Below, piece by piece: positions 1 to 52,529 of a stretch of 64,000 bases of DNA (position 1 is the first letter of the stretch; the number at the start of each line of letters is the position of its first letter). Origin of the DNA: Cyanidioschyzon merolae (taxonomy: Eukaryota); assembly GCA_000091205.1 (NCBI GenBank), contig AP006495.2; one strand, written 5' to 3'. A program made the position numbers and the translations under genes. The notes beneath the pieces are model-generated. The model saw only the letters and a list, made by a program, of their open reading frames with translations. It did not search any database and was not told where the DNA came from.

Positions 1-420
1 TCGCGTCAGCTCCTCGGGTTTCGTCTTCGGCACGGCACACCGTCTTTTATTGATGGCGGTGTTGAAATCTCAGTTCATGAACTCCATGTGTTACCTGCTG
101 ATGGTTGAACCCATCAGTGCTTAGATTGCTAGAACTCGCGCCCTCGGCGCCACTAAAGTCTCGTCATCGCCCCGTCGCGCAGAAAGCTTTTTCTCCGATC
201 TCCCCTTCTTCTTCTTTACTGGCTCATCTGCTATTGATGATCGGCGAGAAGAGGATTTTTTCGTTGTTTACCAGCAGTAGGCGGCAATGACGGCACTCCG
301 GAATCCCCCACTTCCATGGCCAAACATTTCCTTTAGATTTCCTATTTCTTCAAATGAACGCGCTTCGAACAAATCTCCCGTAAACTGCGAAAAAGCATTC
401 AATAGCATCCACATGGGGTG
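1..420 (-). mobile_element. Truncated left-end-proximal fragment of a Fanzor/TnpB-family element running off the window start
   Basis: Bases 300-420 align with 54640-54740 (ttagatt..tatttcttcaaatgaac..ttcgaaca.atct..cg.aaac..cgaaaaagcatt), which lies just upstream of the ORF-A remnant of copy 3. The minus-strand reading of 180-300 is lysine-rich like the ORF-A N-terminus. Confidence 0.3.
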
Positions 421-989
421 GAACATAATTAAGGTACTCCAAACCTAGACTGTTGCGCCTGGGCGTGAGCAGCCTGCGAACAATTTTACGCTGAGTTATC
501 TGTTAAAGTCTTGGACTGATCCTGTGTGAAAGATAGTTGGTTTCAGAGCTTGCTGCGGTACGAAGATCGTGACCGAAAGTCAGGAAGGTTTGCGTTAGTC
601 GCTTCGGCGTTTCACAGTACCCTTGATAAACGTTGGGCTGTGTCGAGGTATGCAATCGTAAGCGTTCCTGTTCAGCACCTCTGGAGCACCTGTTTTGGAT
701 TTGGTCTCAGCCAGTAGGAGCTCTCGCAAAACCACAGAGTTGAGCGACCATAATTTAATGTGAGTTGCGGGAGCCGTAGTTTTCGTCCGCAAAATTGCCA
801 TCAACCACGAACGACGCACTCGCTTAGGACCTCTTTTGTGTAGACTGGACAACAGCATCAAAGCTTGGGAATAAGGTTGTGCTGTATCCGGTCGAAAAAG
901 TGCACGGCGGCGTCTCCGAAACGGCCACCAGGTTGCCTCCTTTCGTGAAAACTCTCGGACTCGCCGGGCATAACACCGAAAGAGGATCT

Positions 990-7279: not shown

Positions 7280-7420
7280 ACACCGCACACCAACAACGCC
7301 GTTCGAAAGTCGAACGACGTCGGGCGTGTACAGAAGTGGCGAGTGACCCGCCCTAGACAAGAAGTCGCCATCTGTGGCGCAGACGCCTCCCAGCCCTTTT
7401 GGACCGGCCACCTACTATTG
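7280..7420 (-). ncRNA. Candidate omega-RNA / right-end region: the last roughly 60 nt of the nuclease ORF plus about 70 nt after the stop, conserved across copies, with a subterminal hairpin cgttcga-ctt-tcgaacg
   Basis: This block is conserved at 7280-7420, 19974-20110, 52530-52660, 10746-10880 and 25580-25700 even where the coding sequence has diverged. It has a perfect 7-bp stem (7299-7315) and a ggcg.gtgac.cgcc palindromic core. The position matches where TnpB/Fanzor omega-RNAs are encoded. Confidence 0.3.
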
Positions 7421-8957
7421 CTTCCAACCCTGTCTCATATATTTCAACTTTTAGAGGTTGTCCAATGAAGTTGTCTCTCGTCAACTCTGGAGGTCTCTTC
7501 TCCAGCACCGCACATCTCCTTATATTGATTGCGGCATTAAAGTCTCTGTTAACAAATTCCGTACGTTTCTTGCCATCATTGGTTGTACACACTAATGCAA
7601 GCAGCCCTCGCACTTTCGCCCTCGTTTCCATTTGCTCCTCCATCAGCGGTCTGTACTTTGCTATTTCCTCAGGGCTCCTCTGGCACTTTTCCATTTCGAC
7701 CCTCTGAAGTGTGCACCCCAGCTCGTGGTGTGTATAGGACGTTCGGAACTCGTCTACAGGTATCGTAACGAAACGCCTTGCGCACTCCTTGTACACCCTC
7801 GTCGTTGGAGCTGGCGTAGTGCCGTTCTTGGGCGCCCAGCGCCCTGCCCCATACGTTACTACGAGCCTCTGACTTTCATTCTACTCGAGGGCGCTCAATT
7901 GATTAAAAAAATTCGCGAACGCCCGCTGCTTTTCACAGTAGAGATTCATTCGCAACCGAGCCCACCGGGGCTTGGTGTACTCCTCCCACAGCGCATCCCA
8001 ATGCGCAACGCGAACTTCCATGCATTCCCGAAAAGCTCGAAAGTCCGCTCCGCGGCTCGTCACCTCGCTCAAAGCTTCCAGGTGATCCTTCATTCCTGCT
8101 CTCCATGCCTCGATTTTCTTCCTTGCATTCATGATTCCCGATTCTCGATAGTACCTCGCTCTCGAGAATCTCAAAAGACGCATATCTTTCTGACGTAAGT
8201 TACCGTCAGTCCCATCTTCCGTACGCTTCGGTGCTGCGATGGTTATGATATTCGTATTCCCGGGGTCCGCGCCAAGGACAAAGTCGTTATCTTGCACTTT
8301 CTGGGTCGCAAGATCCGCCTCCTTCTTTTCTTCATGCTTCGCCGCGCTAACGACAATGTGGTTATCCTCCATCTCCTGCGTCGCAGAATCCGCCTCCTTC
8401 TTTTCTTCATGCTTCGTCACGTCAACGACAAAGTCGTTCTCATGCACTTTTTGCGTCGCAGGACCCACCTCCTTCTTTTCTTCATGCTTCGCCTCGTCAA
8501 CGACAAAGTCGTTATCCTCCACCTCCTGCATCGCAGGATCCTCCTCTTTGTTTTCTTCATCTTTCGTCACGGGCGCAGCTGAGGGAGGGACTGACCGATC
8601 TTTCTTCAACCGCCGATAGTGTACACACAAGGCTACTCCATCGGTTTCGATCATCCCAGTGAACAACTTTTGCTCGCTCACTCTCAGACGTTTGAAATTG
8701 AAGATATTCTTCCAGTACGTCTTCCGGTTTTCGCCGGTGAAGTCCTCCCTGCTAACAATGAACTCCGGACTGATCTCCTTCATGATGTCGTGAAGGACTG
8801 CGGAGTCGATAGTCACAAAATGTGACTTGATATTGTACAATGGAACCGCGTTGAAGCGCTTACCCATTAGGAAGGCCTTCCGTCTCTCCCACTGTTCATT
8901 TGTCTCTTCACTCAGCTTCATCTCTACTTTGCGTTCGAGTTCACGGTCCAGAAACAC
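7353..8957 (-). pseudogene. TnpB/Fanzor-like RuvC nuclease, about 535 aa, intact except for one in-frame TAG (plus-strand 7879-7881); the track splits it into 7881-8957 and 7353-7796
   Basis: Ruv[16 protein letters not shown]; a VVTYGAGRW block; zinc-finger-like DEFRTSYTHHELGCTLQRVEMEKCQ; RuvC-III FVNRDFNAAINIRRCAVLEKR. Both ORF segments are in the same frame, separated only by the TAG. The first codon is GTG (8957), and the first ATG is at 8921. Confidence 0.7.
8273..8561 (-). repeat. 75-bp (25-aa) coding tandem repeat within the N-terminal region of the nuclease ORF, about 4 units (KHEEKKEA..ATQKV.DNDFVVD)
   Basis: The DNA unit ccgcctccttcttttcttcatgcttcg recurs at 8316, 8391 and 8463. The protein shows four acidic/lysine-rich 25-aa units immediately before the RuvC-I GADPG motif. 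Confidence 0.7.
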
Positions 8958-9083
8958 AACTTAGCGCAGGACGAGGCGGTAGTATCTTTCCTTATCTTTT
9001 TTCAGCTCTGATATCTTGTCTGTTGGATTCGCCAGACCCAAAACTGCACGGTGCTCTTCTACAACTGCACGGATTACAGAATC

Positions 9084-9782
9084 CTAATTTGTGCTCCTGC
9101 GTGACGCCTTCTTGTCGACAAATTCGAACTCATCTTCACACTGTCGATTGTTCGTGATGCCATTGATAATCGTCCATATCCCCTTGCGAGAGACGCCGGG
9201 ATAGAGTGCAAACACGTCGCGTATCATGAAACGTTCGTGGTTCATCGTCAATTGGTTCTTCAGGTTCGTAATGTACTTCATTGCCCCGTATGTGTAAATA
9301 TTTCCGTCACCGCAGTATCGATTACCCTCGAAGCAGAATTCCGCGAAGTTTTCGTGGAGGACTTCCACCCGCTCATTTTCCCTCCGCGCTTCCTCTGTAC
9401 CAAGCATCAGCTGACGAATAAAGGTCTTATCGAAAAACTCGTCCGGAATCTCGACCGTTTCCATGTTCGTCACGTCGCGATACATCTCCCTCGCTAGATG
9501 CATCAGTCCTGACGACGCCTTGAAAATACTCTTGGAGTACGAATCGAAACGTTTTTCGAATGCGTCTCGCATCTTTTCCCTGTAGTGATCCTTGATATGT
9601 TTAAGAAGACCGGCTTTCGCCACCATCTCGTCGTACAGTTGTCTTTCTTGCCGCCTTAGACGTTGAGCCTCCCCCTTTCGGTTCTTCTTCTCTTCCTTTT
9701 CTTCTGGACTCGGTACTGTTTTTTGTTTTTTTCTGGCAGCCGGCGACCCTGGACCTCCAGGATCGTCGATTTGCTTTTTCAT
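9084..9782 (-). CDS. ORF-A: conserved 232-aa protein of unknown function encoded upstream of, and co-oriented with, the TnpB-like gene; it has a basic KKQK/RLRRQERQ N-terminus and a Cys/Tyr-containing C-terminal half
   Basis: ATG at 9782. Homologous ORFs or remnants occupy the same position relative to the other nuclease copies (21712-22465 and 54344-54586). No recognisable transposase motif (no HUH, DDE or serine-recombinase signature). Confidence 0.55.
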   Translation of the reverse strand: MKKQIDDPGGPGSPAARKKQKTVPSPEEKEEKKNRKGEAQRLRRQERQLYDEMVAKAGLLKHIKDHYREKMRDAFEKRFDSYSKSIFKASSGLMHLAREMYRDVTNMETVEIPDEFFDKTFIRQLMLGTEEARRENERVEVLHENFAEFCFEGNRYCGDGNIYTYGAMKYITNLKNQLTMNHERFMIRDVFALYPGVSRKGIWTIINGITNNRQCEDEFEFVDKKASRRSTN

Positions 9783-10745
9783 AGCTTTCCTATTTTAGTT
9801 TTTTTGAAAAAGAATGCTCTTTGAACCCTTGTGTTACATACAGCGAAAAACACTTGACTAGACTTGTTTGAGGGCTGAAACAGAAACGAGCTGAAAGACT
9901 GTACTTGGCTACCACCTCAACGGATATCCGACTTTTTACAGCTGAACAACACGCTCCTGGTCAGCATCGCGTTTCCCTTCAACGGCGGCATGTGCATCGC
10001 GTCAGTTGACTGCCTGATCTCCGAGATGCGTTCATTAAGCGCAATGCGTCCACCGCACGAGACGCCACTCCGATCGATGAAGGACACGTGTCCGACACCC
10101 CGCATTGGCACATGCGTGTTCGCATCGCATTGCAGCCAAACTAAAGTATCGAAAATAGGAAACTCATGTAGAACGATCTCTTGCTATAGACTCTGTCGCT
10201 GGTGCCGAAGCTACTGCCCATCGCAGTACCGCCTTGACATACATGGAAATGTTGGGACCTGACGCGATACCTCGCGATGCTTCTATCAAAAGCATAGCGT
10301 TCTCTGCGGCTTACCGTTGTGTGGATGACGTATGCATCACTCTTCTCAAAAGGAATTTCGTTAGTTTTATTCATCGTAACCAAACTAGGTACGGTGGGAT
10401 TCCTGAACACGGACATACGTTTAATGCCGATGCTTGTCATGCATGCTGCACTGACGCTGGAATGAGGAACTGACCTGAATTATGCTTCTATCCTGCGTCA
10501 TAGGCTGGTACTGGTGACCGTTCAAGTCATTTCCATGCTATCGTCGTAGCCAACTTATGGTGCCCGCTACGTTCCCCGGATCCGGTGATCATGGTAGAGG
10601 CACACCACACATGTAGCGTCCATATCTGCCAAGACGTTCGAGCCTTGCATCTCGGCTGACACGATCGAGGAACCCGACAAAAGCACATACTGTATTCTGG
10701 TCTACTCCATAAGATTAGCTTCAAGAGCCTAACCCGTACATCGAC

Positions 10746-12140
10746 GACCGCACACGCACACAAAACGCCGTTCCAAGTCGAAAGACGGCAGTGTACAGTA
10801 GTGGCGGCGAACGCGCCCTAGACAAAACGTCTCCAACTGATGTGCAGATGCTTCCTAGTTTTTCTCGACCAGTCCCCTGCTATCGGTTTCAGTTTCTCCA
10901 CGTTCACTTGGGCCTGGAGAAGCTGTCCCACAAAGTTGGTTCGCTTCAGCTCTGCGGGTCCCTTCTTCTGCACCGCAAAGCCCCATATATCAATAGCAGC
11001 ATTGAGGTCTCGCTCCACGATCCCCAAGCCTTTATTGATGCTGCTTGGACCGACCAGTGCAAGTCGTCCTCGAACTCGTGCCCTCTGTGCCAATTCCTTC
11101 TTTATCAGGTCTCCGTGTTTTTCCATCGCCGAAACGCCCCGCTGGCTCTTCTTAAAGTCGACGTTCTGAAACGTACATCCCAGCTTACATTTCCCGTGAA
11201 TTTTTCATTTCCTCAGAATGAACGCACTTCTTCGCGCCTCTAGGCGACGACCTGCCCGGAGACAGACGGACCTGCGGATGGACGACGATATGTGCCCCGG
11301 TGCGTTACATTGCGGTGCACGCTTCAGCGATTCGCCATGTGCAGCGATCATCACGTTTCACGAAAGGAAACACTCCTTCGATGCGGCTCAACCATGGACT
11401 GTACGAAGCAATGGAAAGCAGCGCTACCCCGATAGAATCGGCAAAGCCCGGGCGCGACGGGAAATAGTGCATTGGCGTATTGTCCTATATAAAAGGATAC
11501 GGCCAGGCGTCAGGGGGTGTGTCTTGAATGACTCGACGAAGTGGCTGGTGCTCTTGTATGAGCCTTCTGCAACAGCGAAACGGAGACCTCGAAATGAGTC
11601 CGCTGCAGCTGGAATAGATGATGATTTCCGAACTCTCCTTGAGTTTGGTGTTAGATATGAAGGGCGCCCTGTATGCGGATGCCCATGTACGATCCGGCTG
11701 TTTCGCGCGAAGGAGGTCTCGCCGGCTGAGCAACCGAACAGAAGCCCCTACGCCGCATACCGGCGGAGACGTTCCAGGAACTCTGCCGTTGCGATTTATG
11801 CGGAAGACAGGCATGAATGAAACAGGACTCTTTTTTGCGACTGTGTCGCAATGTCTCCAGGGCCGCACGAACGAGATGTCGACAAACAAAGACGACCGTG
11901 GTGGCTGCTATCGTCGCTTTTGGTTTCCGCAGAGTGCCTGTTGGGGCGCTTTTCTACGATTGACCGAAAACTTGCTTTAAGAATATCTGTTTACGCCGCG
12001 GAGCGAATGCACACTATTCCAGCGTTTCTCAACCATGTGAGTTCTGTGGTATGAGTGACCTGAAGAAAGAATGCAGTACACCTTGCACTGTTCAGAAACG
12101 ATATATACCCTACAGGCAACTCATCTATAATCTATGCGGC
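10746..12140 (-). mobile_element. Family II internally deleted (non-autonomous) Fanzor derivative, copy 4: right end plus a RuvC-III-only fragment, fused to a roughly 1-kb noncoding left-end-side region
   Basis: Same unit structure as 30300-31877 and 36310-37660. The 1-kb region (11150-12140) begins with ttcatttcctca.aatgaacgcacttcttcg, which resembles the left-end region of family I. Confidence 0.6.
10818..11126 (-). pseudogene. TnpB-like C-terminal fragment (RuvC-III only)
   Basis: IVERDLNAAIDIWGFAVQKKGPAELKRTNFVGQLLQAQV; identical fragment at 36345-36602. Confidence 0.55.
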
Positions 12141-13625
12141 ACACAGCATAGTGATTTCGATATACCGCAATACATTCCAGCAAGGGCGAAACAAAGTTGA
12201 GATGAAAGACTACAAGCCAGGTGTACAAAATCTCAAGTTTTGGTCGCTTCCCACTGTCATCTGCAGAAGCCTTTGATGGCTTTTTATGCGTCTTCTTCGG
12301 TAATCACCGAGCCGAAGTCGGCTTTTAACTTTTCTGGTCTTTACTTTGCCTCCAGATTCGATATAGGCCAGCGAGGATTGTTGACGACGGCGTTCAAGAA
12401 CCTATTTTGGCGCCTCTCGCTGTTGCCAAGGCATACCATTCCATGACGGAGGTTGCCATCCAGCCTTCCCTTGCCATATTCGTCTTCTCTGCATGCAGGC
12501 TAGCTTATTCCTTGATAATGATACCACTTGGCTGTGGTAAGTGGTCCCATAAATTCACTACACCTCCTCTGCCTTCTGAGTACGACCCTGCGTCGCGTGA
12601 ACGCTTGTTCCGTCGCTCATTGCACGCCCATGACAGGTACTAATGGCTTTCCCCGATATCGTCCTCCGTCTCTGCGCCCGATACAGTACTGTGCAATCAG
12701 GGGCTACTTCTCGAGGATCTCCTCGGCGATTACTCTGTGAACTGACCGCGCAAGCGCACTGTCCCGTCCGATTTAGCATTTTGTAGAACGCGATGCTGCC
12801 CCTAACGAAAAACATACCATACACGAATCCGGTCTAGAGAACAAGTCGATTATTTTCATTCCGTCTACGCTTCCTTTGCGCAAAGTGATGACGGAATTTG
12901 TACATGAAGCGATTGCTGTGATGATTCTGGCCAGAAACTAGGACGTTTTCAATGCGGACAAAGGAGCCTGGAGATTCTGGTAACATATGCCATGAAAGGA
13001 ATCATGCTGGAGCCGAATACCATGTCGTCGACATTGACGGAGAAAGGGGGGTTTTATTTCGAACTAGATCGATTGTTAGACGTGAGAAAGTCATTGAGCT
13101 TTTGGATTAAGCGTATGTAGAAATCGTCAATGGACGACGTCAAATTTCTTTCTCTGTGAATCCAGCGGCGTGCATTGCTGTGCCCAAGCATTGCCTTGAA
13201 ACGGAAAGATGGAAAAATTGAAGTACGCAGGATTTGAACATGTTACATGGAAGGACGGGAGAAGACTGAAGGCCTGTCCGAATGGAATGGATTGTGATAA
13301 CGGGTATTTTTGAGCATTTGCTCAAAGGCGTCGCGAATAATTTTGTTTCAGATGAAGTGACGAATCCCGGCATCGAAGAGTCGACGGAATCTCTCTGCAA
13401 ACTCTAAGAAGACTCCTAAAACTAAGTATGAGCCTGTAAGCTTTTGTTGCTGGGCGTCGAATGCCGACGCGGCACAGAAATTCGGAATAAAAATCGAAAG
13501 GCAGGAGCGCAGCGAACAGTACAATGCTCCATTCGAACTGAATACGTTTTGGACAACAGATCCGGTGTTGTTCAGTGGCCACGGTTTGTATTTTTTGTGT
13601 GTCGATCCCTCGCCGGCGTAGCAAA

Positions 13626-19973: not shown

Positions 19974-20058
19974 CACACCGCAAAACGCCTTTCAAAAGAC
20001 AAAAGCTGTCGCCGGCAGTGCACAGCAGTGGCGAGTGACCCGCCCTGGACAAGACCTC

Positions 20059-21495
20059 TCAACTAATCTGCAGACGCCTTCCAGCTTTTCTCGACCGGCA
20101 ACCTACCAGTGATTCCAACTTTTTCTCATATACTTCCACCTTCAGAGATTGTTCCACAAAATTCCCTTTTGTCGGCCCGGGAGGTCTCTTTTCCATCACC
20201 GCACATCTACGTATACTGAAAGCGGCGTTAAAGTCTCGGTTCACGAATTCCATGCGTTTCTTCCCGTCCGTCCGACTCACTAGTGCGAGTCGCTCACGAA
20301 CTTTCGCCCTCCTTTCCATTTGCTCCTCCGTCAGCGGTCCGTACTTTTTTATTTCTTCAGGGTTCCGCTGGCACTTTTCCATCTCGGCCCTCTGAAGTGT
20401 ACAGCCCAGTTTATGGTGTGTATACGATTTTCGGAACACATCTATCGGTATCGTAACGAAACACCGTGCATACTCTTTGTAGGGTCTTTTCGCTGGAGCT
20501 GGCATAGTGCCTTTCTTGGGCGCCCATCGTCCTGCTCCGAATGCCACTACGAGCCTCTGACTGTCATCCTCCTTCAAGGCGCTCAACTCGTTGAAAAAAT
20601 TCGCGAATGCACGCTTCCTCCCACAATACATGTTCAGTCGCAGACGAGCCTACATGGGCTTCGAATACTCCTTCCACAGCGCATCCCAATGAGCAACGCG
20701 AACTTCCATGAACTCCCGAAAAGCTTTAAAGTTCGCTCCGCGGCTACTAGCCTCGCTCATAGCTTCCAGGTGATCCTTCACTCCTGGATTCCACTTCTCA
20801 AATTTCTTCCTCTCATTCATCATACCGGATTCTCGGTAGTATCTCGCTCTCGAGAATCTCAAAAGACGCATATCTTTCTGACGTAAGTTACCGTCAGTCC
20901 CATCTTCCGCACGCTTGGGCACAGCGACGGCTATAAAATTCGTGTTTCCAGGGTCAGCGCCAAAGACAAAGTCGTCCTCATGCACTTTTTGCGTCGCAGG
21001 ACCCGCCTCCTTCTTTTCTTCGTGCTTCGCCTCGTCAACGACAAAGTCGTTATCCTCCACCTCCTGCATCGCAGGATCCTCCTCTTTGTTTTCTTCATCC
21101 TTCGTCACGGGCGCAGCTGAGGGAGGGACTGACCGATCTTTCTTCAACCGCCGATAGTGTACACACAAGGCTACTCCATCGGTTTCGATCATCCCAGTGA
21201 ACAACTTTTGCTCGCTCACTCTCAGACGTTTGAAATTGAAGATATTCTTCCAGTACGTCTTCCGGTTTTCGCCGGTGAAGTCCTCCCTGCTAACATTGAA
21301 CTCAGGACTGATCTCCTTCATGATGCCGTAGAGGACGCCGGAGCCGATAGTCACAAAATGTGACTTGATATTGTACAATGGAACCGCGTTGAAGCGCTTA
21401 CCCATCCGGAAGGCCTTCCGTCTCTCCCACTGTTCATTTGTCTCTTCACTCAGCTTCATCTCCGCTTTGCGTTCGAGTTCACGGTCCAGAAACAC
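20059..21495 (-). pseudogene. TnpB/Fanzor-like RuvC nuclease, copy 2: intact except for one in-frame TAG (plus-strand 20650-20652, a TGG-to-TAG change relative to copy 1)
   Basis: [14 protein letters not shown] (RuvC-I), VVAFGAGRW, FRKSYTHHKLGCTLQRAEMEKCQ, FVNRDFNAAFSIRRCAVMEKR. The track splits it into 20650-21495 and 20059-20631, which share one frame. Confidence 0.7.
20961..21099 (-). repeat. Same 75-bp coding tandem repeat, 2 units
   Basis: EAKHEEKKEAGPATQKVHEDDFV; copy 2 has two units where copy 1 has four. Confidence 0.65.
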
Positions 21496-21711
21496 AACTT
21501 AGCGCATGACGAGGCGGTAGTATCTTTCCTTATCTTTTTTCAGCTCTGATATCTTGTCTGTTGGATTCGCCAGACCCAAAACTGCACGGTGCTCTTCTAC
21601 AACCGCACGGATTACAGAATCCTAATTTGTGCTCCTGCGTGACGCCTTCTTGTCGACAAATTCGACCTCATCTTCACACTGTCGATTGTTCGTGATGCCA
21701 TTGATAATCGC

Positions 21712-22465
21712 CTATATTCCTTTGCGAGAGATGCCCGGGTAGAGTGCAAACACGTCGCGTATCATGAAACGTTCGTGGTTCATCGTCAATTGGTTCTTCA
21801 GGTTCGTAATGTACTTCATTACCCCGTATGTGTAAATATTTCCGTCACCGCAGTATCGATTACCCTCGAAGCAGAATTCCGCGAAGTTTTCGTGGAGGAC
21901 TTCCACCCGCTCATTTTCCTCCCGCGCTTCCGCTGTACTAAGCATCAGCTGACGAATAAACGTCTTGTCGAAAAACTCGTCAGGAACATCGACTGTTTCC
22001 ATGTGCGTCACGTCGCGATACATCTCCCTCGCTAGATGCATCAGTCCTAAAGAAGCCTCAGGAAAACTCATGGAGTCCAACTCGCAACAGTTTCTGATGG
22101 ACTCCCGCAATTTTTGCTTTTACGAATTCTTGCTATGTCCGAGAAGACAGGCTTTCACGACCATCTCGTCGTACAGTCGTCTTTCTTGCAGCCATTAACG
22201 TAGGGCCTCCCCCTTCTGCTTCTTCGTCTTGTCTCGTTCCTCTATGTTTGGCTCTATGTATCGTTTTTTTCGCCAGCCAGCGATACTGGCCCTCCAGGGT
22301 CCTCCACGTCGCTGTCCAGAACATTGGTTTTTTATTTTTTGAAATAGAACGCACTATGAACGTCTCTGCTCTAAACCACGAAAAATACTCGAATACTCTT
22401 ATTTGAGGGTTGAAACACAACTGAAATAGAAGCCGTACTTGGCTACGACCTGACCGGAAATCCAA
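21712..22465 (-). pseudogene. ORF-A remnant of copy 2: premature TAG (TGG to TAG) and a degenerate N-terminal region
   Basis: 21712-22110 encodes ...GLMHLAREMYRDVTHMETVDVPDEFFDKTFIRQLML...GISRKGI then a stop where copy 1 reads GIWTIING. The upstream 22133-22465 segment is homologous at DNA level but disrupted. Confidence 0.6.
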
Positions 22466-24680
22466 CTTTTACATTACGGCCACACGCCAGAGATTAAGAT
22501 CACGTTTCCTTTCAACGGCGACATGCGCGTCGTGTCTCATGTCTGCCTGATCTCCCGGGTGCGCTCACCAAGCGCAATGCGTGCACCGCGCGAGACGCTG
22601 CACCAATCGATAAAGGCCTAAGATCGTTGCCGCGCACAACTTGCCTCTAGAGCCCGGTACGCGCTGCGCTGCACCACAGCGTGAGATGCGTCGCGCCCGG
22701 TGCGGCATTGATCGAGTTCCTGGTGCCTTCGACTGCGATCGCGGGCTCTCGCCCCGCGGAACGGCTATCTCTCTATAAGCGCTATACGTTTGCGAATTGT
22801 GTGGATGTCAGAATGACGCGCAACTGGCCGAACAGCGCCGCACAGCACTCACATAGAAGCGAGCATGGACTGAAAAGCAGGTACGGGCATAGGCACACGG
22901 CGTTGCGCCGCATGCTGCCGCCTTTCGCCGCGCAGCACACCGACCGAGGCGGCGTTCAACCGGCAACGCTCCGCGCCCCTGCCAGATATATTGCTTGGGA
23001 ATCTGCGCATCGCCGCTGCGTCGAATCGCGGGGCAGTATCGCTCCTGGCATCGCGTGCGTGCAGGTTTGGATCGATTGTGCCAGATGCGCGAGCGAGCGC
23101 GCGCGCCGCGGATCCCTGTGATCGATGTTTACCGAGATATATGCGCTGTCTATGAATAACTATTTTTGTTTGAAATGAATGCTAGATGTACAGTCTCAAC
23201 AATCGAGGTTCATCCATAACGAGTTCAGGAATGCGCAAACCGGTTTTCTGTTGAATTTTCGAGGGGTTGCTTTCGTGATTTGCAGCTGGAGTTTGTAGCG
23301 TTATGGAAAACAAAAGGATGTTGGAAACCTTCGAACAAGGATTCGTGAAATGATGGATATCAGAATCCGATGCATATGGACACGGCTCGAATCATCCTGT
23401 TTCCTTGCGAGAAGCATGCTGAAATCACGCGTGATTCAGGTTTTCGAATTTTTTGTTTCAGGGCAATTCGCGGGCGTAGCTATTTGCGCGGCTTGATTGA
23501 CAAGGCATAAACTGGACGCCACTGGTTAACGGCCTTTTCTATAAGCTCATGCAGAAAGTACCCGTAACTTTTCAGGTCGAAAAATCAGTTCAGATCGAAT
23601 GATAAATCATCCTGACTGTGTGGCCATCGACGAGTCAGGATTCGACGGCAGCATGATACACCCCGCGAGATGTGCTCACAGAGGCTTCGATCTCTTCTAG
23701 TTGCGTGGAAAGGGTTGCTCGACTCGTTGTTTTGTCCTCGCAGCGCTTGCTTCCAGTGGAGCGTGCATCGTCGCCTTGCACGAACGGCGGACAGGCGGAC
23801 CGAATTTTCCTTACTTGTTCTCCGGCTTGGATTTTACTTCCGGTACTTTTCTCATCACGGGCAACATGGCGTTCCATAAGCCCTGTATTGCCTGGGACAG
23901 TGTGCGCTAGCGCATGCAGCAGACAGTGTACTCGCCGAAAGCATTGACGATGACAAGCCCAGGATCGCAGGGAATGGCTCGAGTTCCAGAAACGGATGCG
24001 GGAATCTGTGGACGCCTTCCGTATCCGTAGAGGGCATGCACTGAGCGATAAGGCAAGCATTTATACGCCACAGGGTGACGCGCAAAGAAGCGTAAGCGGC
24101 GGTCACACGGAAGCACCTGACCACAACTAAGTGTCACAGCAGTGACGAGCGCACCAAAAATATGCACAGGAACGATGAACATGGGAAGCGAGGCCTAGAT
24201 CGCAACCTTTGCCTGTGCAAGAAATTGGTGCGCAACAGGAGTAAGCAGCAGAATACCGGACCTGAACGCTGCGGTAAACAGCTCTCAAGAGTTGGCGACC
24301 GAGCTGCAGGACTAGGAGGTACCAGCTAATTGAAAGCCAGCGGTGCGAGGGAGACGATAAGCGAGCAGTTGCAAAAAAAATCCGACACGGACTGGTGTTT
24401 ATTACAATGGGAAGAGATCAAAATTTAAGGACGTACACCTGACTTGTCTACCCGATCCCATCGAACTGTATTTTGACATGAGTGTTATCGGATCAACGTA
24501 GACGAACGCATGATCTACTGTATGATGCATCGCACATCCATCGCGTGAAGATGCTCATTCTCATCATCATGCTCGCCATGGCAAATATCATCGGGATCAA
24601 CGACCACTAGATACTTGACCGCTATGACCTTTATCGATTGTAAAGGCGCTCCGTATGTTCATAAACATCCAATGAAACCG

Positions 24681-25579: not shown

Positions 25580-26100
25580 ACACCGCTGGCAAACGCCTTT
25601 CAAAAGTCGAAAGCAGTCGTCAGCAGTGCACAGTAGTGGCGGCAAACGCGCCCTGGACAAAACGTCTTCAGCTGAACTGCCGAAGCCTCACTGTCTCTCT
25701 CGACCGGCCACCTACAACTGGCTTCAACTTCATTCCGTACAATTCGACCATGGAAGGCTGCCACACAAAGCTGGCTCCTGTCAGCTCCTCGAATCGCTTC
25801 TCCAGCACCGCGCATCGTCTGATATTGATAGAAGCATTAAAGTCTGGGTTCACAAACTCCATGCGCTTCTTGCCCCCGTTGGTTGTACCCACCAGTGCGA
25901 GGAGTCCTCGAACTTTCGCCCTCATTTCCATCTGCTCTTCCGTCAACGGTCTGTACTTTTCTATATCCTCAGGGATTGGCTGAAACTGCTCTATCTTGAC
26001 CCTCCGGGACGTACACCGCAGCTCGTGGTGTATATATGATGTTTGGAGCTCATGTATCGGTATTGTGACGAAGCATCGTTCGCAATCCTTGTACGCTCAT
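25580..26100 (-). mobile_element. Solo right-end-side fragment of a Fanzor-family element (copy 5), with a RuvC-III remnant at 25668-25946
   Basis: FVNPDFNASINIRRCAVLEKR plus the conserved 3' block tacaccgctggcaaacgcctttcaaaagtcgaaag..gtgcacagtagtggcgg..cgccctggacaaaacg. Confidence 0.6.
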
Positions 26101-27279
26101 TCCGAGTCGCTGTTAACCGGAAACGATATTCTCCTCGAAAAGCCATGAAAGTGGTGCTGTGGCTTTCCGCCAGACACGGTGGCTGCTTTTGCCGTGCCCA
26201 TGGCCCTGCAGGCGTGTTTCAGGGTGCGCTGACTGCACAAAAGCGCCGAGTTCGCGCTGCTGCCCTAGCATCTGGGTGCTGGCAGCTCCACAGCACAGAT
26301 ATCTCATGATGTGCGGGTGGAGCATGCTGCTTCAGCACCGTAAGAACGACGCGCTCTCATGCGCGTTCCCCCATGATCCAAGATGTAATCCATAGAGTGA
26401 TACTGGCGGCTATCACCGAGCGTCTTGCATATAGAATGCAAATCTGGGAACTGCATCCTAGGGCTCGGAGTTCCATGTCACGAACAGTGCATATGCTCAA
26501 GATCGGTGCTCGAAGCGAACGCGCTGTACACCATACACTGCATTGCTGCACGAGAACAGTGCTATGCTCGGGGCCGGATAGAGTACCTTACGAAAAGTCA
26601 GCAGGAACGTCGCTTTCAGGTACGGTGCGTGACACGGGCCAGGCGAGAGCGATCCGTTTGCCCCTCACTTCGGAATGCGAATTCGCTGTTCATGAGTGTC
26701 TTCCCGTAGTAATGCCTCTTTACTTCAGTTCAGAGGCGCGCCTGTTCGAGTTGGTTTTGCGCTTGCGTTCGAGCTTTTTGCCGATTCTATCGTGGAGTAG
26801 ACCTGCTTTTTATTCCTCCTTGTACTCCGTGATTCACGCCCATCAAAGACGTATTTTCTATTGTGAAACGTAATGATCGCAGCACTGGGCGAATCGCTGA
26901 AGCGTTCTGCACAATCACGTCGGAGCATACGTCGTCGTTCTTCAGCAAGTCTTTCTCCCTCCGGCCAGATCGTCGACTACGGGCATTCAGAAGTGCGTCC
27001 ATTTGACGAAATAGAAAATCCGTGCGAAAGGTATGGACATGAAATCTAGGGATTCCGGAGGGCTGTCATTGCCAGGCACCGGGAAAATGGAAATAATCCC
27101 CTTCTCGTCGACCACTGAGCGAAGAAGAGCAAGTGACGACGACGACAAAGAAGAGAATAGATAGGCGAGAAAAGATGCATGCCCGACGAGACGCAGGCGA
27201 TTCTTGAGTAGCACAGAGGGCGCGAGCTCTTAGAATCTTCGCATAGATGAATTCAGTCAGCGGCAATAAATGAAAGGTA

Positions 27280-27460
27280 TTCGTGAACCGAGACTTCAAC
27301 GCCGCCATCAACATCAGGTGATATCTGGTGTCCAGGACGAGACCCGAGGATCTGAGGCGATCCAGCTTTGTGGGGCAGCCTCTCAGACTCGAATTGCAGA
27401 AGGAGGAGCTGAAACCGATAGCAGAGGGGCTGTCTAAAACGGGCTTGGAGGTGTTTGTGA
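27280..27460 (+). mobile_element. Short plus-strand RuvC-III fragment of a Fanzor-family element (copy 8)
   Basis: Plus-strand translation FVNRDFNAAINIR*..RPEDLRRSSFVGQPLRLELQKEELKPIAEG. Confidence 0.45.
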
Positions 27461-27910
27461 GTGGATATTGATTTATCATGCATCGCTGCCGAACGTTTGT
27501 AGTTTCACGGACGATGGGCAACTTAGTGTTAATTTTTCAAGTTACTGTAATATATGTCTAATGATTACCAGAGCCGTCGGCGTCGATTGGGGCCTCGTGC
27601 CGAGTTACATGCGCGCTCGCACAGAGCGTCGCAGCACCGTCGAGTCGCTGTGTTTTCGACGAGGGTGGCTTTTCATAGACGACGGCGGCTGAAGCTCTGC
27701 GTGCTTCTGTAATCGTCTGCTTTCCTCGCAAATACGCTAATTTGGATCAGCAACAACAGACGAGGCGCTTAAGCTCTAGATCTGCGGTTTGCTACTGTTC
27801 CACTCGATAGACGATTCTTTTTTGTTCACCAAAGTTCGCAGTGGTCTCGAGCTCCGCTTTGTAGCAAGGTTTCGTGCTTCTCGTCGCTGCTCTGGACCAT
27901 CTGTTGTTCT

Positions 27911-29083: not shown

Positions 29084-30462
29084 TCATCCGCTCGTTCCTT
29101 GACTTGCGGCAAATTATAGAGCCATATTCCAAATAAGAGCACGCCTAAACCGAGCAGGACCATAAACGAAAAACGAGACTGGACCAGCAGCGGTACTGGC
29201 AGGCAGAAAACTAGCGTTGTTAGCGGCACAGAAATCAACGATGCAACCACGGAGTCGAGAGCGGATGCGATTTTCAGCAATCGCAAACCCGTGATGTTGA
29301 ATACAATATTCACAGCAACGTACGCAAGAGCTAGCCACGGCATCCAACTGCTCTCACGCCCCGCAAATGTGCTGAGTGCACTAGAAAAGTAATCGCCAAT
29401 GGAGGGGCTTTCAGCCAAGCGAGCTGCAAAAGGTGTTGTGAAAGGCAGCATGAGCGAGATAGCAGCAAACTGCATGAGGCTCGAAAAAGTATTGACAATG
29501 AACAGATCCGGTTGCACGCCACTTCGTTTGAAAACGCGCTCTTTGAGTACAACGGCTAAGGCAACGAATGCGTAGGATCCGAAGAATAAAAACGCATTCA
29601 TCCATACGCCTCCCGAAGAGAGATTCAAAGCTGCTTCGTTCACAGTTTGAGGGCCAATGGAAATCAGCACACCGGCGAGGACAACAAGCATGCCATAAAT
29701 TTGGGTGAGCGTGTAGCGACGACCTAGCAGAGCATACGAGGCCAAGGCAATGAATATGAGGATTCCTTGATTCAGTACTGGAAGCAGAGCACCGGGAAGC
29801 CGAGAAGCAGTAAACATACCGATTACGAAAGTAAGCGCCTCCAGTGCCCCAATGAGGGCGAACAGACGCCAGTTATTCACTGCCCACTTGACCTGCGTCA
29901 TAGGGACAATACGCATGCGCACTCGTATCCAGAGAATAGAGGCATAAACCAGCACGTAGCACAAGGTGACAAAAAGTGAGAGGAAAAATGTGTACGAATA
30001 CATTATCTGCAAGTCCATCCGGTAAACTACGCGGTTCAAGACCGATAACGCCACGTACGCTGCAGTGGTCAACAGCACGTCAGACGACACCCGCGTCGCT
30101 ATTCTACCACCCGTTTTTGCAGTTTTATTCTGCTGCATGAGCAAAGAGGCTTTCCGCATTTCAACGGGTCTACTTCGGGGTGCAGTAAAGCGGGGTCCAG
30201 GCTCCACGGGGCACCCCGCAAACGTTACTCGTGCCCTAGCGCCAGTCGAGCGGAAGGCTTGGTAAAGCCGACTGACAGGCGCTTTATTTACCTCCGCTGG
30301 ACTAGCAACATGATTTCTACGGGCAAAGGGGTTAGACTTTATGGAGTGAGCGGAACAAAACTGTGATATCCATCCACTGTTGGTGAACATTGCATGCTCA
30401 TCTTTGCCACCAGAACGAAAAATTTGCCACCGCCGGGTAAATTCATGCTCGCGCGCAGACAT
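29080..30462 (-). CDS. CLT: CRT-like transporter (CLT, chloroquine-resistance-transporter-like thiol transporter). The first roughly 40 codons of the ORF read through Fanzor copy-6 sequence, so the true start is probably an internal ATG (about 30390 or 30156)
   Basis: [10 protein letters not shown]...[27 protein letters not shown]...VLKERVF match the CLT/PfCRT-family core; multiple transmembrane segments. The 3' end overlaps RPL3 by 4 bp (convergent). Confidence 0.75.
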
Positions 30463-31877
30463 CTGCTAGCCTCTCTCGACTGGCTACCTGCTACAGGATT
30501 CAGTTTCTTTTTGTACATTTCTACCCTGAGAGATTGCCCCACGAAGTTGGCTCTTGTCAGCTCTGCGGGTCTCTTCTTCAGCACCGCACATCTCTCGATA
30601 TTGATAGCAGCATTAAAGTCTCGTTTCGCGTACTCCTGGCGTGCATAGTCGTTGGTTGAAGTCATCTCTCCAGGAATTTCTGGTAATCGTTCCCTCTGTA
30701 CCACGTTAGTAATGTCATCGCCCCGTCGGTCAAAAGAGTCTTCTCGGCTGTCTCCCTTTTTCATATTCTTCTTCTACGTCATCGTCACTTGCTCTTCTTT
30801 GCTTGATGGTCTTCGAGACGAGAAATTTTTCATTTTCTTTCGAGGCCGGAGATGACGGCCCTCCAGGATCTTCGAATTCCATGTGCTAACGTTTCCCATG
30901 AATTTTTCATTTCCTCAAAATGAACGCACTTCTTCGTGCCTCTAGGCGACGACCTGCCCGGAGACAGACGGACCTGCGGATGGACGACGATATGTGCCCC
31001 GGTGCGTTACATTGCGGTGCACGCTTCAGCGATTCGCCATGTGCAGCGATCATCACGTTTCACGAAAGGAAATACTCCTTCGATGCGGCTCAACCATGGA
31101 CTGTACGAAGCAATGGAAAGCAGCGCTACCCCGATAGAATCGGCAAAGCCCGGGCGCGACGGGAAATAGTGCATTGGCGTATTGTCCTATATAAAAGGAT
31201 ACGGCCAGGCGTCAGGGAGTGTGTGTCTCGAATGACTCGACGAGGTGGCTGGTGCTCTTGTATGAGCCTTCTGCAACAGCGAAACGGAGACCTCGAAATG
31301 AGTCCGCTGCAGCTGGAATAGATGATGATTTCCGAACTCTCCTTGAGTTTGGTGTTAGATATGAAGGGCGCCCTGTATGCGGATGCCCATGTACGATCCG
31401 GCTGTTTCGCGCGAAGGAGGTCTCGCCGGCTGAGCAACCGAACAGAAGCCCCTACGCCGCATACCGGCGGAGACGTTCCAGGAACTCTGCCGTTGCGATT
31501 TATGCGGAAGACAGGCATGAATGAAACAGGACTCTTTTTTGCGACTGTGTCGCAATGTCTCCAGGGCCGCACGAACGAGATGTCGACAAACAAAGACGAC
31601 CGTGGTGGCTGCTATCGTCGCTTTTGGTTTCCGCAGAGTGCCTGTTGGGGCGCTTTTCTACGATTGACCGAAAACTTGCTTTAAGAATATCTGTTTACGC
31701 CGCGGAGCGAATGCACACTATTCCAGCGTTTCTCAACCATGTGAGTTCTGTGGTATGAGTGACCTGAAGAAAGAATGCAGTACACCTTGCACTGTTCAGA
31801 AACGATATATACCCTACAGGCAACTCATCTATGATCTATAGAACGCATTATACAGTGACGTCGAAGACCTTCTGCAA
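30300..31877 (-). mobile_element. Family II internally deleted Fanzor derivative, copy 6 (more diverged RuvC-III fragment at 30339-30764, plus the 1-kb left-end-side region at 30860-31877)
   Basis: AKRDFNAAINIERCAVLKKRPAELTRANFVGQSL. The 1-kb part is near-identical to 11150-12140 and 36630-37660 and ends ..gacgtcgaagaccttctgcaa. Confidence 0.6.
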
Positions 31878-31906
31878 ACTTCAGCTGGGATGGAACGAAA
31901 GTGCGT

Positions 31907-33232
31907 TGAAAGAGCATAAAAGGGTATTCTGATCCATGTCCTCTATTCCTGGATTTCTCATTGTTTTCCGAACTTTTGCAAATGTATAGACTGCACATTC
32001 GACGTGTAGCAGAACTGGTCTTCCTAGGATCCATGCCTAGTTCTAGGATTCTCGGTTGTGTCTTCCTGGTCGCTCTTCTGACTCTCGCAGAAGGGCATTC
32101 ATTCTTCCACTCTCGTAAAAAGCATTCGCGACGCCCTCGAGAAAAGCTTAGCAAAATAAGCTGTACCATACTTCATCCCACAATCAGAGCCTCAACGCTT
32201 CTCAGCTCCGTACTCGTCGCGTGCTCAAAGCACGCGTTCTTCCAATTTTCGATCTATCAGTCGCGAAGCAACTCGTGGCGCTGTGATTCGCTCTAGTCGT
32301 TTGACAACGGCAAAAAGTCGACTTCGCCTCCCGCCAAGTCCTTCACAAGCTCATGGCGAAAGTTGACTAACCATGTCACGTCGAGTCATCGATTCTATTC
32401 GAACCACAAACGTACCTCTCTTTGTTGCCAACGACCAAGCGGCATTCCTCAGCAGCATGACACTTCTGGCGTCGTACGCTCCCGAAGCCTTCTATCGCTT
32501 CTGTTTTCGAGGGAGAAGGGTCTGGGCTCGGCCCTGAGCCATCGCCACGATAGCAACCCGTAGAGGGAGTCACAGCTTTGCATGAAGAGAGCGCAGACGG
32601 GTCGGAATTTTACGGTTTGATCTCCCGTCTGGATTCTCCTTCCGTTGCTTGGTTCACCACGGACAGCATCGCGTGCCCAGAGTCCGACATCCCATGGAAC
32701 AGCTTGCGCTTGCTTGCGCTTGCTTGCGCTCGCTTTTGCAGTGGACAGCGTACGCAACGAGGCATCGCGCCGAAGAAGCCCGTGATCGTCGGGTGCGGCA
32801 TCGAGCGCGGAGACTGAGAACGGCATCTACGGAAACCTCTTACACTCGTCAAGGGCATGTAGCGCGCGTTCAAGTCAGCGTTCATGGTCCGCATGGCGGC
32901 CGCCGGCCATGGCGACGTGGACGATATGTTAGAACGCATGTCGACAGCGGAGTGCATCTGTTTCGAATGACGCGCCGAGACTGTACGTACAGAAGATGAG
33001 AATGGCAAGCGAAGCGTTCATCGGAACTACAGTCTGTGCAGGAAAGGCGTGGACAACGGGCTGAAGCGACGAAATCTTGACTTGTACGGGGACGTCCATA
33101 TCCTTCGACTGCCGAGAGCGCAGCTGGAGCGACATGAGAGACGGGCGCATCTAAACTCGGAGGTGGGAGAGCAAAAGGAAGCAGCTGCATAAATATCCCG
33201 CAAAGGTTGGTGTTGATGACAATATGAAGGGA
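31907..33232. repeat. Segment B-prime: inverted copy of 16240-17575, starting about 30 bp from the copy-6 left end
   Basis: See segment B. The shorter minisatellite is at 32701-32733. Confidence 0.7.
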
Positions 33233-52500: not shown

Positions 52501-52529
52501 AAACAGAGCACTCACTGCCAGCAACGAAC

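What the first reader, a model, noticed from the sequence alone, without database searches (positions are those of the whole stretch)
10746..12140. Three near-identical internally deleted (non-autonomous) derivatives that keep only the RuvC-III segment, the 3' block and a 1-kb left-end-side region
Units at 10746-12140, 30300-31877 and 36310-37660 share about 99% identity over the 1-kb region (for example, the identical 120-aa spurious ORFs 11618-11980 and 31322-31684) and end at a common left-end terminus ..gaagaccttctgcaa. They have lost the N-terminal two-thirds of the nuclease and ORF-A but keep the candidate omega-RNA and right-end region. This is the classic signature of recently trans-mobilised deletion derivatives, implying the family has been active recently.
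Basis: seen in the sequence. Interest (0 to 1): 0.65.

Follow-up and report, generated by a model that had tools for sequence, protein, structure and literature searches.

The report
Old Fanzor transposon relics, patch-homogenised by recombination
The three look-alike units are old, decayed, internally deleted remnants of the known Fanzor1-carrying repeat of the red alga Cyanidioschyzon merolae. Their ~1-kb near-identity is best explained by copy-to-copy recombination (gene conversion), not recent jumping, so the finding is real but fairly ordinary.

Summary
The window is Cyanidioschyzon merolae 10D, a finished genome. The ~2.7-kb minus-strand elements (7284-10083, 19974-22616, 52532-54768) are pseudogenised copies of its known Fanzor1 repeat (CMe-1A; 253-copy "interspersed repetitive element").

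The three units are real. Their true limits are about 10755-12216, 30418-31920 and 36282-37697. They are internal-deletion derivatives: the "1-kb region" is the 5' UTR/left-end region, which begins 3 nt upstream of the nuclease start codon.

They are not three copies of one young derivative:
- c1/c3 fuse the 5' UTR to about aa 637.
- c2 keeps ~50 N-terminal plus ~58 C-terminal residues, the same junction as older fragments at 26756-27475 and 1-433.
- Both derivative types have relatives only 59-70% identical, so both are old.

Near-identity (97-100%) is an internal patch. The outermost ~46 nt at the left end are only ~60-65% alike, c1 lacks the "ctgcaa" end, and only c1 keeps the conserved 3' block. 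Which pair of units is most alike changes from segment to segment. In another population the c3 locus carries a c2-type patch.

Best explanation: recent ectopic gene conversion among old, clustered relics. No evidence of recent mobilisation was found. Interest is low to moderate.

The parts
10755..10817 (-). c1: right-end 3' block downstream of the stop codon (same type as the full-length copies: GTCTAGGGCGCG..CGCCACTACTGTACAC..TTCGAC..GGAACGGCG)
   Evidence: Aligns with the 3' block of A1, A2, A3, B, L012 and L013. It is absent from c2 and c3.
10818..11186 (-). c1: Fanzor1 C-terminal remnant (about aa 637-752 of a 752-aa relative). It starts KLGCTFQNVDFKKSQR at 11186 and has the RuvC-III motif RDLNAAIDI at 10986-11012. 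The 102-aa ORF 10818-11126 lies inside it.
   Evidence: tblastn with P0003, translations. 6/302 differences to c3 in this segment.
11187..12135 (-). c1: 5' UTR/left-end region of the ancestral element, the near-identical 'core'. The deletion junction is at 11186/11187.
   Evidence: 97.8-98.7% identical to c2 30885-31839 and c3 36659-37613. No Fanzor-like or Pfam coding signal. The first ~50 nt and the c2 sequence just before it are homologous to the start-codon region of A1.
12136..12216 (-). c1: left-end terminal ~80 nt. 12136-12170 is private to c1 and only weakly alignable with c2/c3. 12171-12216 is homologous to the c2 and c3 ends at ~60-65% identity.
30418..30536 (-). c2: diverged 3' region after the tail. 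It is weakly similar to the corresponding part of c3, d and L015, not to the 3' block of the full-length copies. It overlaps the 5' extension of the CRT-like ORF 29080-30462.
30537..30882 (-). c2: remnant start codon (30882-30880) plus ~50 N-terminal residues (to about 30736), fused to the last ~58 residues of the nuclease (30698-30537). RDFNAAINI lies at 30597-30623. A frameshift and stops lie between the two parts.
30885..31920 (-). c2: 5' UTR/left-end region. The core is 30885-31839. 31840-31877 is identical to c3. 31878-31920 is the old terminal segment. The end abuts repeat C2, which starts at 31917.
36282..36356 (-). c3: diverged 3' region (c2/d/L015 type). It lacks the conserved 3' block.
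36357..36662 (-). c3: Fanzor1 C-terminal remnant of the c1 type (KLGCTFQ at 36642-36662, RDLNAAIDI at 36462-36488).
   Evidence: In metagenome locus L011 the same locus switches to c2-type sequence at 36465.
36663..37697 (-). c3: 5' UTR/left-end region. The core runs to 37613. 37614-37651 is identical to c2. 37652-37697 is the old terminal segment.
26756..27475 (+). d: old member (59-72% identity) of the c2-type deletion derivative, with the same junction. It has ~280 nt of 5' region homologous to the start of the core.
1..433 (-). e: old member of the c2-type deletion derivative, cut by the window edge. Its 5' part resembles the 5' end of A3 (54589-54761, 71%).
7284..10083 (-). A1: full-length Fanzor1 element (CMe-1A type), a pseudogene. 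Three same-frame ORF pieces (9794-9087, 8960-7884, 7880-7356) are separated by stops. RuvC motifs: GADPGNTN 8250-8273, DEFRTS 7737-7754, RDFNAAINI 7521-7547.
19974..22616 (-). A2: full-length element, pseudogene (81-88% identical to A1).
52532..54768 (-). A3: full-length-type element, heavily frameshifted.
25591..26104 (-). B: 5'-truncated tail of a full-length-type copy (aa 641-751) with the conserved 3' block.

Best explanation
c1, c2 and c3 are old, non-coding, internally deleted relics of the Fanzor1-carrying interspersed repeat of Cyanidioschyzon merolae. They represent two independent deletion types.
- c1/c3: the 5' UTR is fused to about aa 637 of the nuclease.
- c2: the first ~50 residues are fused to the last ~58, the same junction as fragments d, e and the L006 copy.

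Both types spread long ago (shown: relatives with the same junctions at 59-70% identity at other sites). How they spread is unknown; the family has no terminal inverted repeats, target-site duplications or known transposase.

The ~1-kb near-identity is not inherited from a recent transposition. It was written onto these three relics, which lie within 27 kb and in the same orientation, by recent non-allelic homologous recombination (ectopic gene conversion). Tracts of roughly 1-1.3 kb homogenised the interior and left the element ends and flanks at their old divergence. This step is inferred from the mosaic pattern and supported by a patch polymorphism at one locus.

The units have no evident present function. 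They act as substrates for recombination and, probably, for inversions in this chromosome region.
For: 1. ORGANISM AND FAMILY. RPL3 and topoisomerase I of the window are exact matches to C. merolae 10D proteins BAM81088.1 and BAM81096.1 on an 866,983-bp record. That genome is finished telomere to telomere and carries 253 copies of a ~3.2-kb repeat with a WSV486-like ORF (PMC1955436). The repeat was later named the Fanzor1 element CMe-1A (PMC3627910). A family profile hits SpuFz1 (8GKH) at E = 0.004 with the RuvC D/E/D motifs aligned.

2. DELETION ARCHITECTURES. Read directly.

3. AGE. c2, d, e and L006 are colinear across one junction at 59-68% identity. L015 shares the c1 junction and ~210 nt of the core at ~70%. 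The first ~200 nt of the L006 core are 60-70% identical.

4. MOSAIC.
- c1-c2: 12/955 differences in the core against 24/45 in the next 45 nt (p = 3e-27).
- c1-c3: 21/955 against 21/45 (p = 8e-20).
- c2 and c3 are identical over 31840-31877 / 37614-37651, exactly where c1 departs from them, and then diverge.
- The terminal 46 nt are homologous in all three at ~60-65%.
- Groupings change along the unit: (c1,c3), then all three, then (c2,c3).
- Only c1 has the conserved 3' block.

5. SAME LOCUS, DIFFERENT PATCH. L011 has the RRN3 flank at 99% and is identical to c3 up to 36465. It then switches to c2-type sequence (97-100%), including the N-terminal remnant that c3 of strain 10D lacks. The switch lies within a shared run of only 24 nt.

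6. CORE VARIANTS. They are reshuffled among loci and samples.

7. FLANKS. Unrelated, so this is not segmental duplication.

8. BACKGROUND. Homologous recombination is efficient in C. merolae, where it is used for gene targeting (PMC3764038, PMC5348525). Gene conversion between dispersed transposable-element copies is well documented elsewhere (PMC6598467, PMC8230782).
Against: - No whole-genome analysis was possible, so the copy number of the core and the existence of a donor or master elsewhere in the 16.5-Mb genome are unknown.
- The left limit of three-way identity (11187 / 30885) coincides with the point where the two architectures stop being colinear. That boundary is therefore uninformative about tract ends.
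- The population evidence (L005, L006, L008, L011) comes from short metagenome contigs that can be chimeric in repeats. L011's switch within only 24 shared nt makes a chimera unlikely but not impossible.
- c1 and c3 (98% over 1.25 kb) could in principle be one recent copying event followed by changes at both ends.
- No formal recombination program (GENECONV, RDP, GARD) was run; only windowed identities and Fisher tests.
Confidence: 0.72

Rival explanations
1. One reading: one internally deleted non-autonomous derivative was recently mobilised in trans by an active family member, giving three young copies.
For: The core is 97.8-98.7% identical and the flanks are unrelated. Deletion junctions are real. 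Derivatives with identical junctions do occur at several loci, so such derivatives were mobile at some time. The family is transcribed according to PMC1955436.
Against: There are two different deletion architectures among the three units. Tails shared by c2 and c1/c3 are only ~64-80% identical. The ends are not shared: the terminal 46 nt are ~60-65% identical, c1 lacks the 'ctgcaa' segment, and only c1 has the 3' block. Identity limits differ between pairs. No master was found. The full-length copies in the window are pseudogenes.
Confidence: 0.1
2. The ~1-kb core is a separate, young mobile element that inserted site-specifically into older relics.
For: There are sharp drops of identity at the edges of the core. 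The core matches nothing else in the window beyond its first ~280 nt.
Against: The edges differ between copies: 12135 in c1, 31877 in c2/c3, about 200 nt further in for L006, and 10881 for c1-c3. The core occupies exactly the position of the native 5' UTR, and its left part is homologous at 60-72% to the 5' UTR of old members d, L006 and L015. This is replacement, not insertion. No terminal repeats or target duplications were found.
Confidence: 0.05
3. The core is conserved by strong purifying selection (a promoter or non-coding RNA exapted by the host), while the rest of each relic drifts.
For: The family is transcribed (PMC1955436). A TATA-like motif (CCTATATAAAAGG) lies near 11490, read directly from the alignment.
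Against: Zero differences in 588 nt next to ~50% divergence would need selection on every base. The limits differ between pairs. Other members of the same derivative families are only 60-72% identical in the homologous region. There is no Rfam or Pfam signal.
Confidence: 0.04
4. Assembly or polishing artefact: repeat copies were homogenised or mis-joined by the assembler.
For: The metagenome contigs that carry these repeats end in or switch within them.
Against: The window is from the finished C. merolae 10D genome, described as 100% complete from telomere to telomere. Artefactual homogenisation cannot raise ~65% identity to 99%. Independent metagenome contigs reproduce c1's private end and the c2/c3 end.
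Confidence: 0.03

Closest known systems
CMe-1A Fanzor1 element of C. merolae (Bao & Jurka 2013, PMC3627910), equal to the 253-copy 'novel interspersed repetitive element' with a WSV486-like ORF (Nozaki et al. 2007, PMC1955436)
   Same: Same organism. The full-length copies in the window are ~2.6-2.8 kb, 80-88% alike, lack TIRs and TSDs, and encode a Fanzor1-type RuvC nuclease. The units under study carry that element's C-terminal coding tail and, in c1, its 3' block.
   Different: The units lack 85-90% of the ORF. They carry a ~1.03-kb 5' region that the full-length copies in the window do not have; theirs is ~300 nt and unrelated beyond the first ~50-100 nt. Identity to the Repbase consensus could not be tested.
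TE-N2_CMe (635-bp non-autonomous element equal to the 5' end of CMe-1A; PMC3627910)
   Same: A short non-coding derivative of the same family built from its 5' side, showing that the family spawns non-autonomous forms.
   Different: TE-N2_CMe is described as the 5' 635 bp only. The present units join a different, longer 5' region to the 3' tail. No sequence was available for comparison.
Internally deleted non-autonomous DNA-transposon derivatives (e.g. Ds from Ac, deleted P elements); from general knowledge
   Same: A deletion junction joins 5' and 3' parts of the parent. The same junction is found at several loci.
   Different: The parent's transposition enzyme and ends are unknown here. The copies are old, and their similarity is patchy rather than end to end.
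Ectopic (non-allelic) gene conversion between dispersed repeats, as described for Alu and other TEs (PMC8230782, PMC6598467)
   Same: Internal high-identity tracts with sharp, copy-specific limits, incongruent groupings along the element, and unrelated flanks.
   Different: The tracts here are ~1-1.3 kb, occur between relics only 6-25 kb apart, and lie in a haploid-genome alga known for efficient homologous recombination. The donor, direction and timing are not resolved.

Membership tests
Fanzor1 (eukaryotic TnpB-like RuvC nuclease), for the parent element | Split RuvC triad D ... E ... RD in the C-terminal half | tested here: met
   GADPGNTN (8250-8273), DEFRTS (7737-7754) and NRDFNAAINI (7521-7547) in A1. 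They align to the corresponding motifs of SpuFz1 in the profile match.
Fanzor1 (eukaryotic TnpB-like RuvC nuclease), for the parent element | Detectable sequence homology to an experimentally characterised Fanzor1 | tested here: met
   The profile of 16 family members has as best PDB hit 8GKH (Spizellomyces punctatus Fanzor1), E = 0.004 over ~370 positions. A single sequence gives nothing. Pfam gives only a sub-threshold TNB-domain hit.
Fanzor1 (eukaryotic TnpB-like RuvC nuclease), for the three units | Encodes a nuclease with all three RuvC motifs | tested here: not met
   Only the RuvC-III part remains: aa ~637-752 in c1/c3 and ~695-752 in c2. The units are relics, not nuclease genes.
CMe-1A / C. 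merolae interspersed repetitive element | Located in the C. merolae genome; ~3 kb; many diverged (~80%) copies; no TIRs or TSDs | tested here: met
   Organism. Three copies of 2.2-2.8 kb at 80-88% identity. No TIR or TSD. Descriptions in PMC3627910 and PMC1955436.
CMe-1A / C. merolae interspersed repetitive element | Sequence identity to the Repbase consensus | not testable with these tools
   Repbase is not available here.
Recently mobilised non-autonomous deletion derivative | Internal deletion junction joining 5' and 3' parts of the parent | tested here: met
   c1/c3 junction at 11186/11187 and 36662/36663. In c2 the N-terminal remnant (30882-30736) is joined to the tail (30698-30537).
Recently mobilised non-autonomous deletion derivative | All copies share one junction and both termini | tested here: not met
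   There are two different junction types. The 3' block is present only in c1. Left-end segments differ.
Recently mobilised non-autonomous deletion derivative | Uniformly high identity from end to end | tested here: not met
   97-100% identity only in an internal patch; 40-80% or ~60-65% at the ends.
Recently mobilised non-autonomous deletion derivative | An autonomous or intact master with matching ends exists | tested here: inconclusive
   None in the window, in ~40 kb of further genome, or among proteins retrievable from a 5.8-billion-protein collection. The whole genome could not be searched.
omega-RNA-bearing right end (TnpB/Fanzor type) | Conserved non-coding block at or after the 3' end of the nuclease ORF | tested here: met
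   Met for c1 only. The block GTCTAGGGCG..CGCCACT.CTGT.CAC is conserved in A1, A2, A3, B, c1, L012 and L013. It is absent from c2 and c3.
omega-RNA-bearing right end (TnpB/Fanzor type) | Secondary structure supported by covariation, or a match to a curated RNA family | tested here: inconclusive
   The RNAalifold covariation term is +0.11 with 7 sequences, and most pairs are invariant. No Rfam match even at E <= 1. Expression is not testable here.
Ectopic gene conversion among dispersed repeats | Sharp, pair-specific identity transitions and incongruent groupings along the repeat, with unrelated flanks | tested here: met
   (p = 3e-27 and 8e-20).
Ectopic gene conversion among dispersed repeats | The same locus carries different patches in different individuals or populations | tested here: met
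   L011 against c3 of strain 10D, and reshuffled core variants. Caveat: these are metagenome contigs.

The most novel reading that the evidence does not exclude
The patchwise homogenisation is not passive. A still-active Fanzor1 element carrying this 1-kb 5' region exists elsewhere in the C. merolae genome. Breaks made by its RNA-guided nuclease, or its own copying intermediates, are repaired against relic copies. In that case the nuclease would drive a homing-like conversion that keeps relics 'refreshed'. Nothing here tests this directly. No guide-like matches were seen and no master was found.
Probability: 0.06. Interest if true: 0.65.

Novelty: new member of a known kind. Interest (0 to 1): 0.25.

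Why it matters
- It corrects an age inference. In this genome near-identity between transposon relics does not show recent transposition, so these units give no evidence that the Fanzor1 family of C. merolae is currently active.
- It shows that the abundant Fanzor1 relics (about 5% of this very compact genome) are substrates for ectopic recombination. Metagenome contigs also suggest they mediate local inversions. This bears on genome stability and on the design of homologous-recombination targeting constructs in this model alga.
- It documents two old internal-deletion subfamilies of the Fanzor1 element with exact junctions. That helps anyone reconstructing the element's ends, its possible omega RNA and its unknown transposition mechanism.

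Tried and rejected
SEARCHES THAT LED NOWHERE
- Exact look-ups of three ORFs inside the core in public assemblies found nothing on record.
- No copy-number estimate was possible because repeats collapse in those assemblies.
- Rfam (gathering over the whole window; E <= 1 on 10500-12500) and the tRNA scan found nothing.
- Pfam on core ORFs and on repeat-C ORFs found nothing meaningful.
- A single-sequence PDB search with the nuclease found nothing. Only the profile worked.
- The search for a full-length master failed with the c1 tail ORF, with the c2 N-terminus plus tail, by blastx of all tails against 123 family proteins, and by BLAST of the core against ~40 kb of extra genome.
- The omega-RNA structure test found no covariation support.
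- No terminal inverted repeats or target-site duplications were found.
- The guide-like match check on right-end flanks gave one 14-mer hit, at chance level.

EXPLANATIONS CONSIDERED AND REJECTED
- Segmental duplication: the flanks are unrelated.
- A nested young element: its limits are not constant, and the core replaces a homologous old 5' UTR.
- Selection on the core.
- Assembly artefact: the window is from a finished genome.
- My own early guess that the window came from an uncultured alga was wrong. One search showed only the 4 best of the 23 contigs read, and all 4 were metagenome contigs. One search showed exact matches to strain 10D.
Full report
WHAT THE WINDOW IS

The window is gene-dense and almost intron-free. 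It carries eukaryotic housekeeping genes as single ORFs: SNF2 helicase, RETICULATA-like protein, PRPP synthetase, RPL3, CRT-like transporter, RRN3, P5A-ATPase and topoisomerase I. The RPL3 and topoisomerase I proteins are exact matches to Cyanidioschyzon merolae 10D (BAM81088.1, BAM81096.1) on a record of 866,983 bp. That genome is finished from telomere to telomere (PMC1955436), so the repeat structure in the window can be trusted.

THE PARENT FAMILY

Three ~2.2-2.8-kb elements lie on the minus strand: A1 7284-10083, A2 19974-22616 and A3 52532-54768. They are 80-88% alike.

They encode one ~750-770-aa protein, broken by stops and frameshifts. A 752-aa relative from a metagenome aligns colinearly to 9716-7461.

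The protein has the motifs [14 protein letters not shown] and NRDFNAAINI. A profile of 16 relatives finds Spizellomyces punctatus Fanzor1 (8GKH) as the best solved structure (E = 0.004), with these motifs aligned.

This matches two published descriptions:
- the 253-copy, 3.2-kb, transcribed "novel interspersed repetitive element" with a WSV486-like ORF (PMC1955436);
- the Fanzor1 element CMe-1A, with ~150 copies ~80% identical to the consensus and no TIRs or TSDs (PMC3627910).

THE OBSERVATION

The three units exist. Gapped alignments give limits of about 10755-12216 (c1), 30418-31920 (c2) and 36282-37697 (c3).

All three share a ~950-nt core at 97.8-98.7% identity. c1 and c2 are identical over 588 nt, and the two 120-aa ORFs are identical. 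The flanks are unrelated.

Four points do not hold:
- The "ctgcaa" end is shared only by c2 and c3.
- Homology continues ~46 nt beyond it in all three, at only ~60-65% identity.
- c2's left part is not near-identical to c1/c3.
- Only c1 has the conserved 3' block that the full-length copies carry after the stop codon.

ANATOMY

The core has no protein-level similarity to Fanzor and no Pfam or Rfam signal.

In c2 the core begins 3 nt upstream of a remnant start codon (30882-30880). A ~50-residue N-terminal remnant follows. It reads MEFEDPGGPSSPASKENEK..., against MKKQIDDPGGPGSPAARKKQK... in A1. It is fused to the last ~58 residues of the nuclease.

So the core is the 5' UTR/left-end region of an ancestral element, and c2 is a true internal-deletion derivative. 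Fragments d (26756-27475), e (1-433) and a copy on metagenome contig L006 share c2's junction and are colinear with it at 59-68% identity.

c1 and c3 have a different junction. The 5' UTR is fused directly to about aa 637: KLGCTFQNVDFKKSQR..., against ELGCTLQRVEMEKCQR... in A1. Contig L015 carries the same junction at ~70% identity, including ~210 nt of the core.

Both deletion types therefore spread long ago. The ordinary divergence of the 5' region among family members is about 30-40%, not 1-2%.

WHY THE NEAR-IDENTITY IS NOT RECENT TRANSPOSITION

Along the unit, the closest relatives change from segment to segment (c1 coordinates unless stated):

| Segment | Pattern |
|---|---|
| 3' region | c1 resembles the full-length copies; c2 and c3 resemble each other |
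| 10881-11186 | c1 = c3 (6/302 differences); c2 has another architecture |
| 11187-12135 | all three 97-100% |
| next 35 nt (12136-12170; 38 nt in c2/c3) | c2 and c3 identical (31840-31877 = 37614-37651); c1 strongly diverged from both |
| last 46 nt | all three ~60-65% |

The jumps are abrupt. For c1-c2 there are 12/955 differences in the core against 24/45 in the next 45 nt (p = 3e-27). For c1-c3 it is 21/955 against 21/45 (p = 8e-20).

The L006 copy has yet another limit. Its first ~200 nt of core are 60-70% identical, and the rest is 97-100%.

Copies made by a recent transposition should be uniformly similar up to shared termini. A patch with copy-specific limits inside old, diverged ends is the signature of non-allelic gene conversion.

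One caveat applies. The left limit of three-way identity coincides with the point where the two architectures stop being colinear, so it says nothing about where a tract ended.

POPULATION EVIDENCE

L011 is the c3 locus from another sample, with the RRN3 flank at 99% identity. It is identical to c3 up to 36465. It then switches, inside a shared run of only 24 nt, to c2-type sequence at 97-100%. This includes the N-terminal remnant that c3 of strain 10D lacks.

The same site thus carries different architectures in different populations. Replacement by recombination explains this. Independent insertion does not.

The diagnostic variants of the core are also reshuffled among loci and samples.

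These data come from metagenome contigs, which can be chimeric in repeats, so I treat them as support rather than proof.

Two background points make the process plausible:
- Homologous recombination is efficient in C. merolae (PMC3764038, PMC5348525).
- Gene conversion among dispersed transposable elements is well known (PMC6598467, PMC8230782).

WHAT WAS NOT FOUND

- No full-length element with this 5' region or these tails.
- No further core copies in ~40 kb of additional genome.
- No TIRs or TSDs.
- No covariation-supported fold for the 3' block.
- No guide-like matches of right-end flanks.
- All full-length copies in the window are pseudogenes.

VERDICT

The units are real, and they are internal-deletion derivatives of a known Fanzor1 repeat in a well-studied genome. 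The inference of recent trans-mobilisation is not supported.

The best explanation, at about 0.7 confidence, is recent ectopic gene conversion among old relics that lie within 27 kb of each other.

This is a new member of a known kind and of modest interest. The decisive test is a segment-wise whole-genome analysis of C. merolae 10D and its sister strains.

Noticed in passing
window 16233-17575 and 31917-33238 (inverted); L008 (94.8-kb contig Ga0080006_1136386): A 1.3-kb repeat 'C' is present as an inverted pair (97%) 14.3 kb apart, and c2's left end abuts C2 exactly. The gene order on L008 can be derived from the window by two inversions: one between C1 and C2, and one between inverted c cores. 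This suggests recombination isomers in natural populations, or an assembly mis-join.
   Followed up: partly
window 12232-12462, 16192-16466, 24189-24443 (-), 33005-33285 (-), 43765-43984; L016 1709-1988: A further ~250-nt dispersed repeat (mean column identity 67%). It ends in ...GCTTCGCTTGCCAT, i.e. an ATG-initiated short ORF on the opposite strand. One copy sits directly next to c1's left end, and two form the outer edges of repeat C. Its nature is unknown.
   Followed up: partly
window 8267-8571 (A1) and 20961-21104 (A2): A 75-nt tandem repeat lies inside the nuclease ORF, just upstream of the RuvC-I motif. It encodes ~25-aa acidic/lysine-rich units (..KHEEKKEA..ATQKV.DNDFVV..). There are 3.9 units in A1 and 1.9 in A2, and relatives have variable numbers.
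   Followed up: partly
window 39354-40125 and 59903-60674: A 772-nt direct repeat at 99% identity, 20.5 kb apart. It is unrelated to the Fanzor family and has only short ORFs. It was not identified.
   Followed up: partly
L009 (JGI 3300050388) versus window 10472: In another population the c1 locus is colinear with the window only down to 10472. It then continues into an adenylate-kinase gene that is absent from the window. This is a structural difference next to the full-length copy A1.
   Followed up: no
window 25591-26104 (-) and 26756-27475 (+): Two Fanzor relics lie head to head upstream of RPL3: a 5'-truncated full-length-type tail (B) and the deletion derivative d. Including the fragment at 1-433, the 64-kb window holds nine Fanzor-derived pieces, all in intergenic spacers.
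   Followed up: partly
window 29080-30462 (-): The mechanical ORF of the CRT-like transporter extends at its 5' end into unit c2 (30418-30462). Metagenome gene calls for the same gene are shorter (352-436 aa), so the real start is probably downstream.
   Followed up: no
window 8001-10000, 20001-22000, 52001-54000: Strongly negative GC and AT skew (-0.17 to -0.20) marks the bodies of the full-length Fanzor elements. This reflects a purine-rich coding strand on the minus strand.
   Followed up: no
window 7284-7356 and equivalents; alignment A2: The ~70-nt block after the nuclease stop codon is more conserved than the adjacent coding sequence. It contains a short hairpin (CGTTCGA-CTT-TCGAACG in A1) followed by a G/T-rich run at the element end. 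This is a candidate cis element or omega-RNA part, but it lacks covariation support with 7 sequences.
   Followed up: partly
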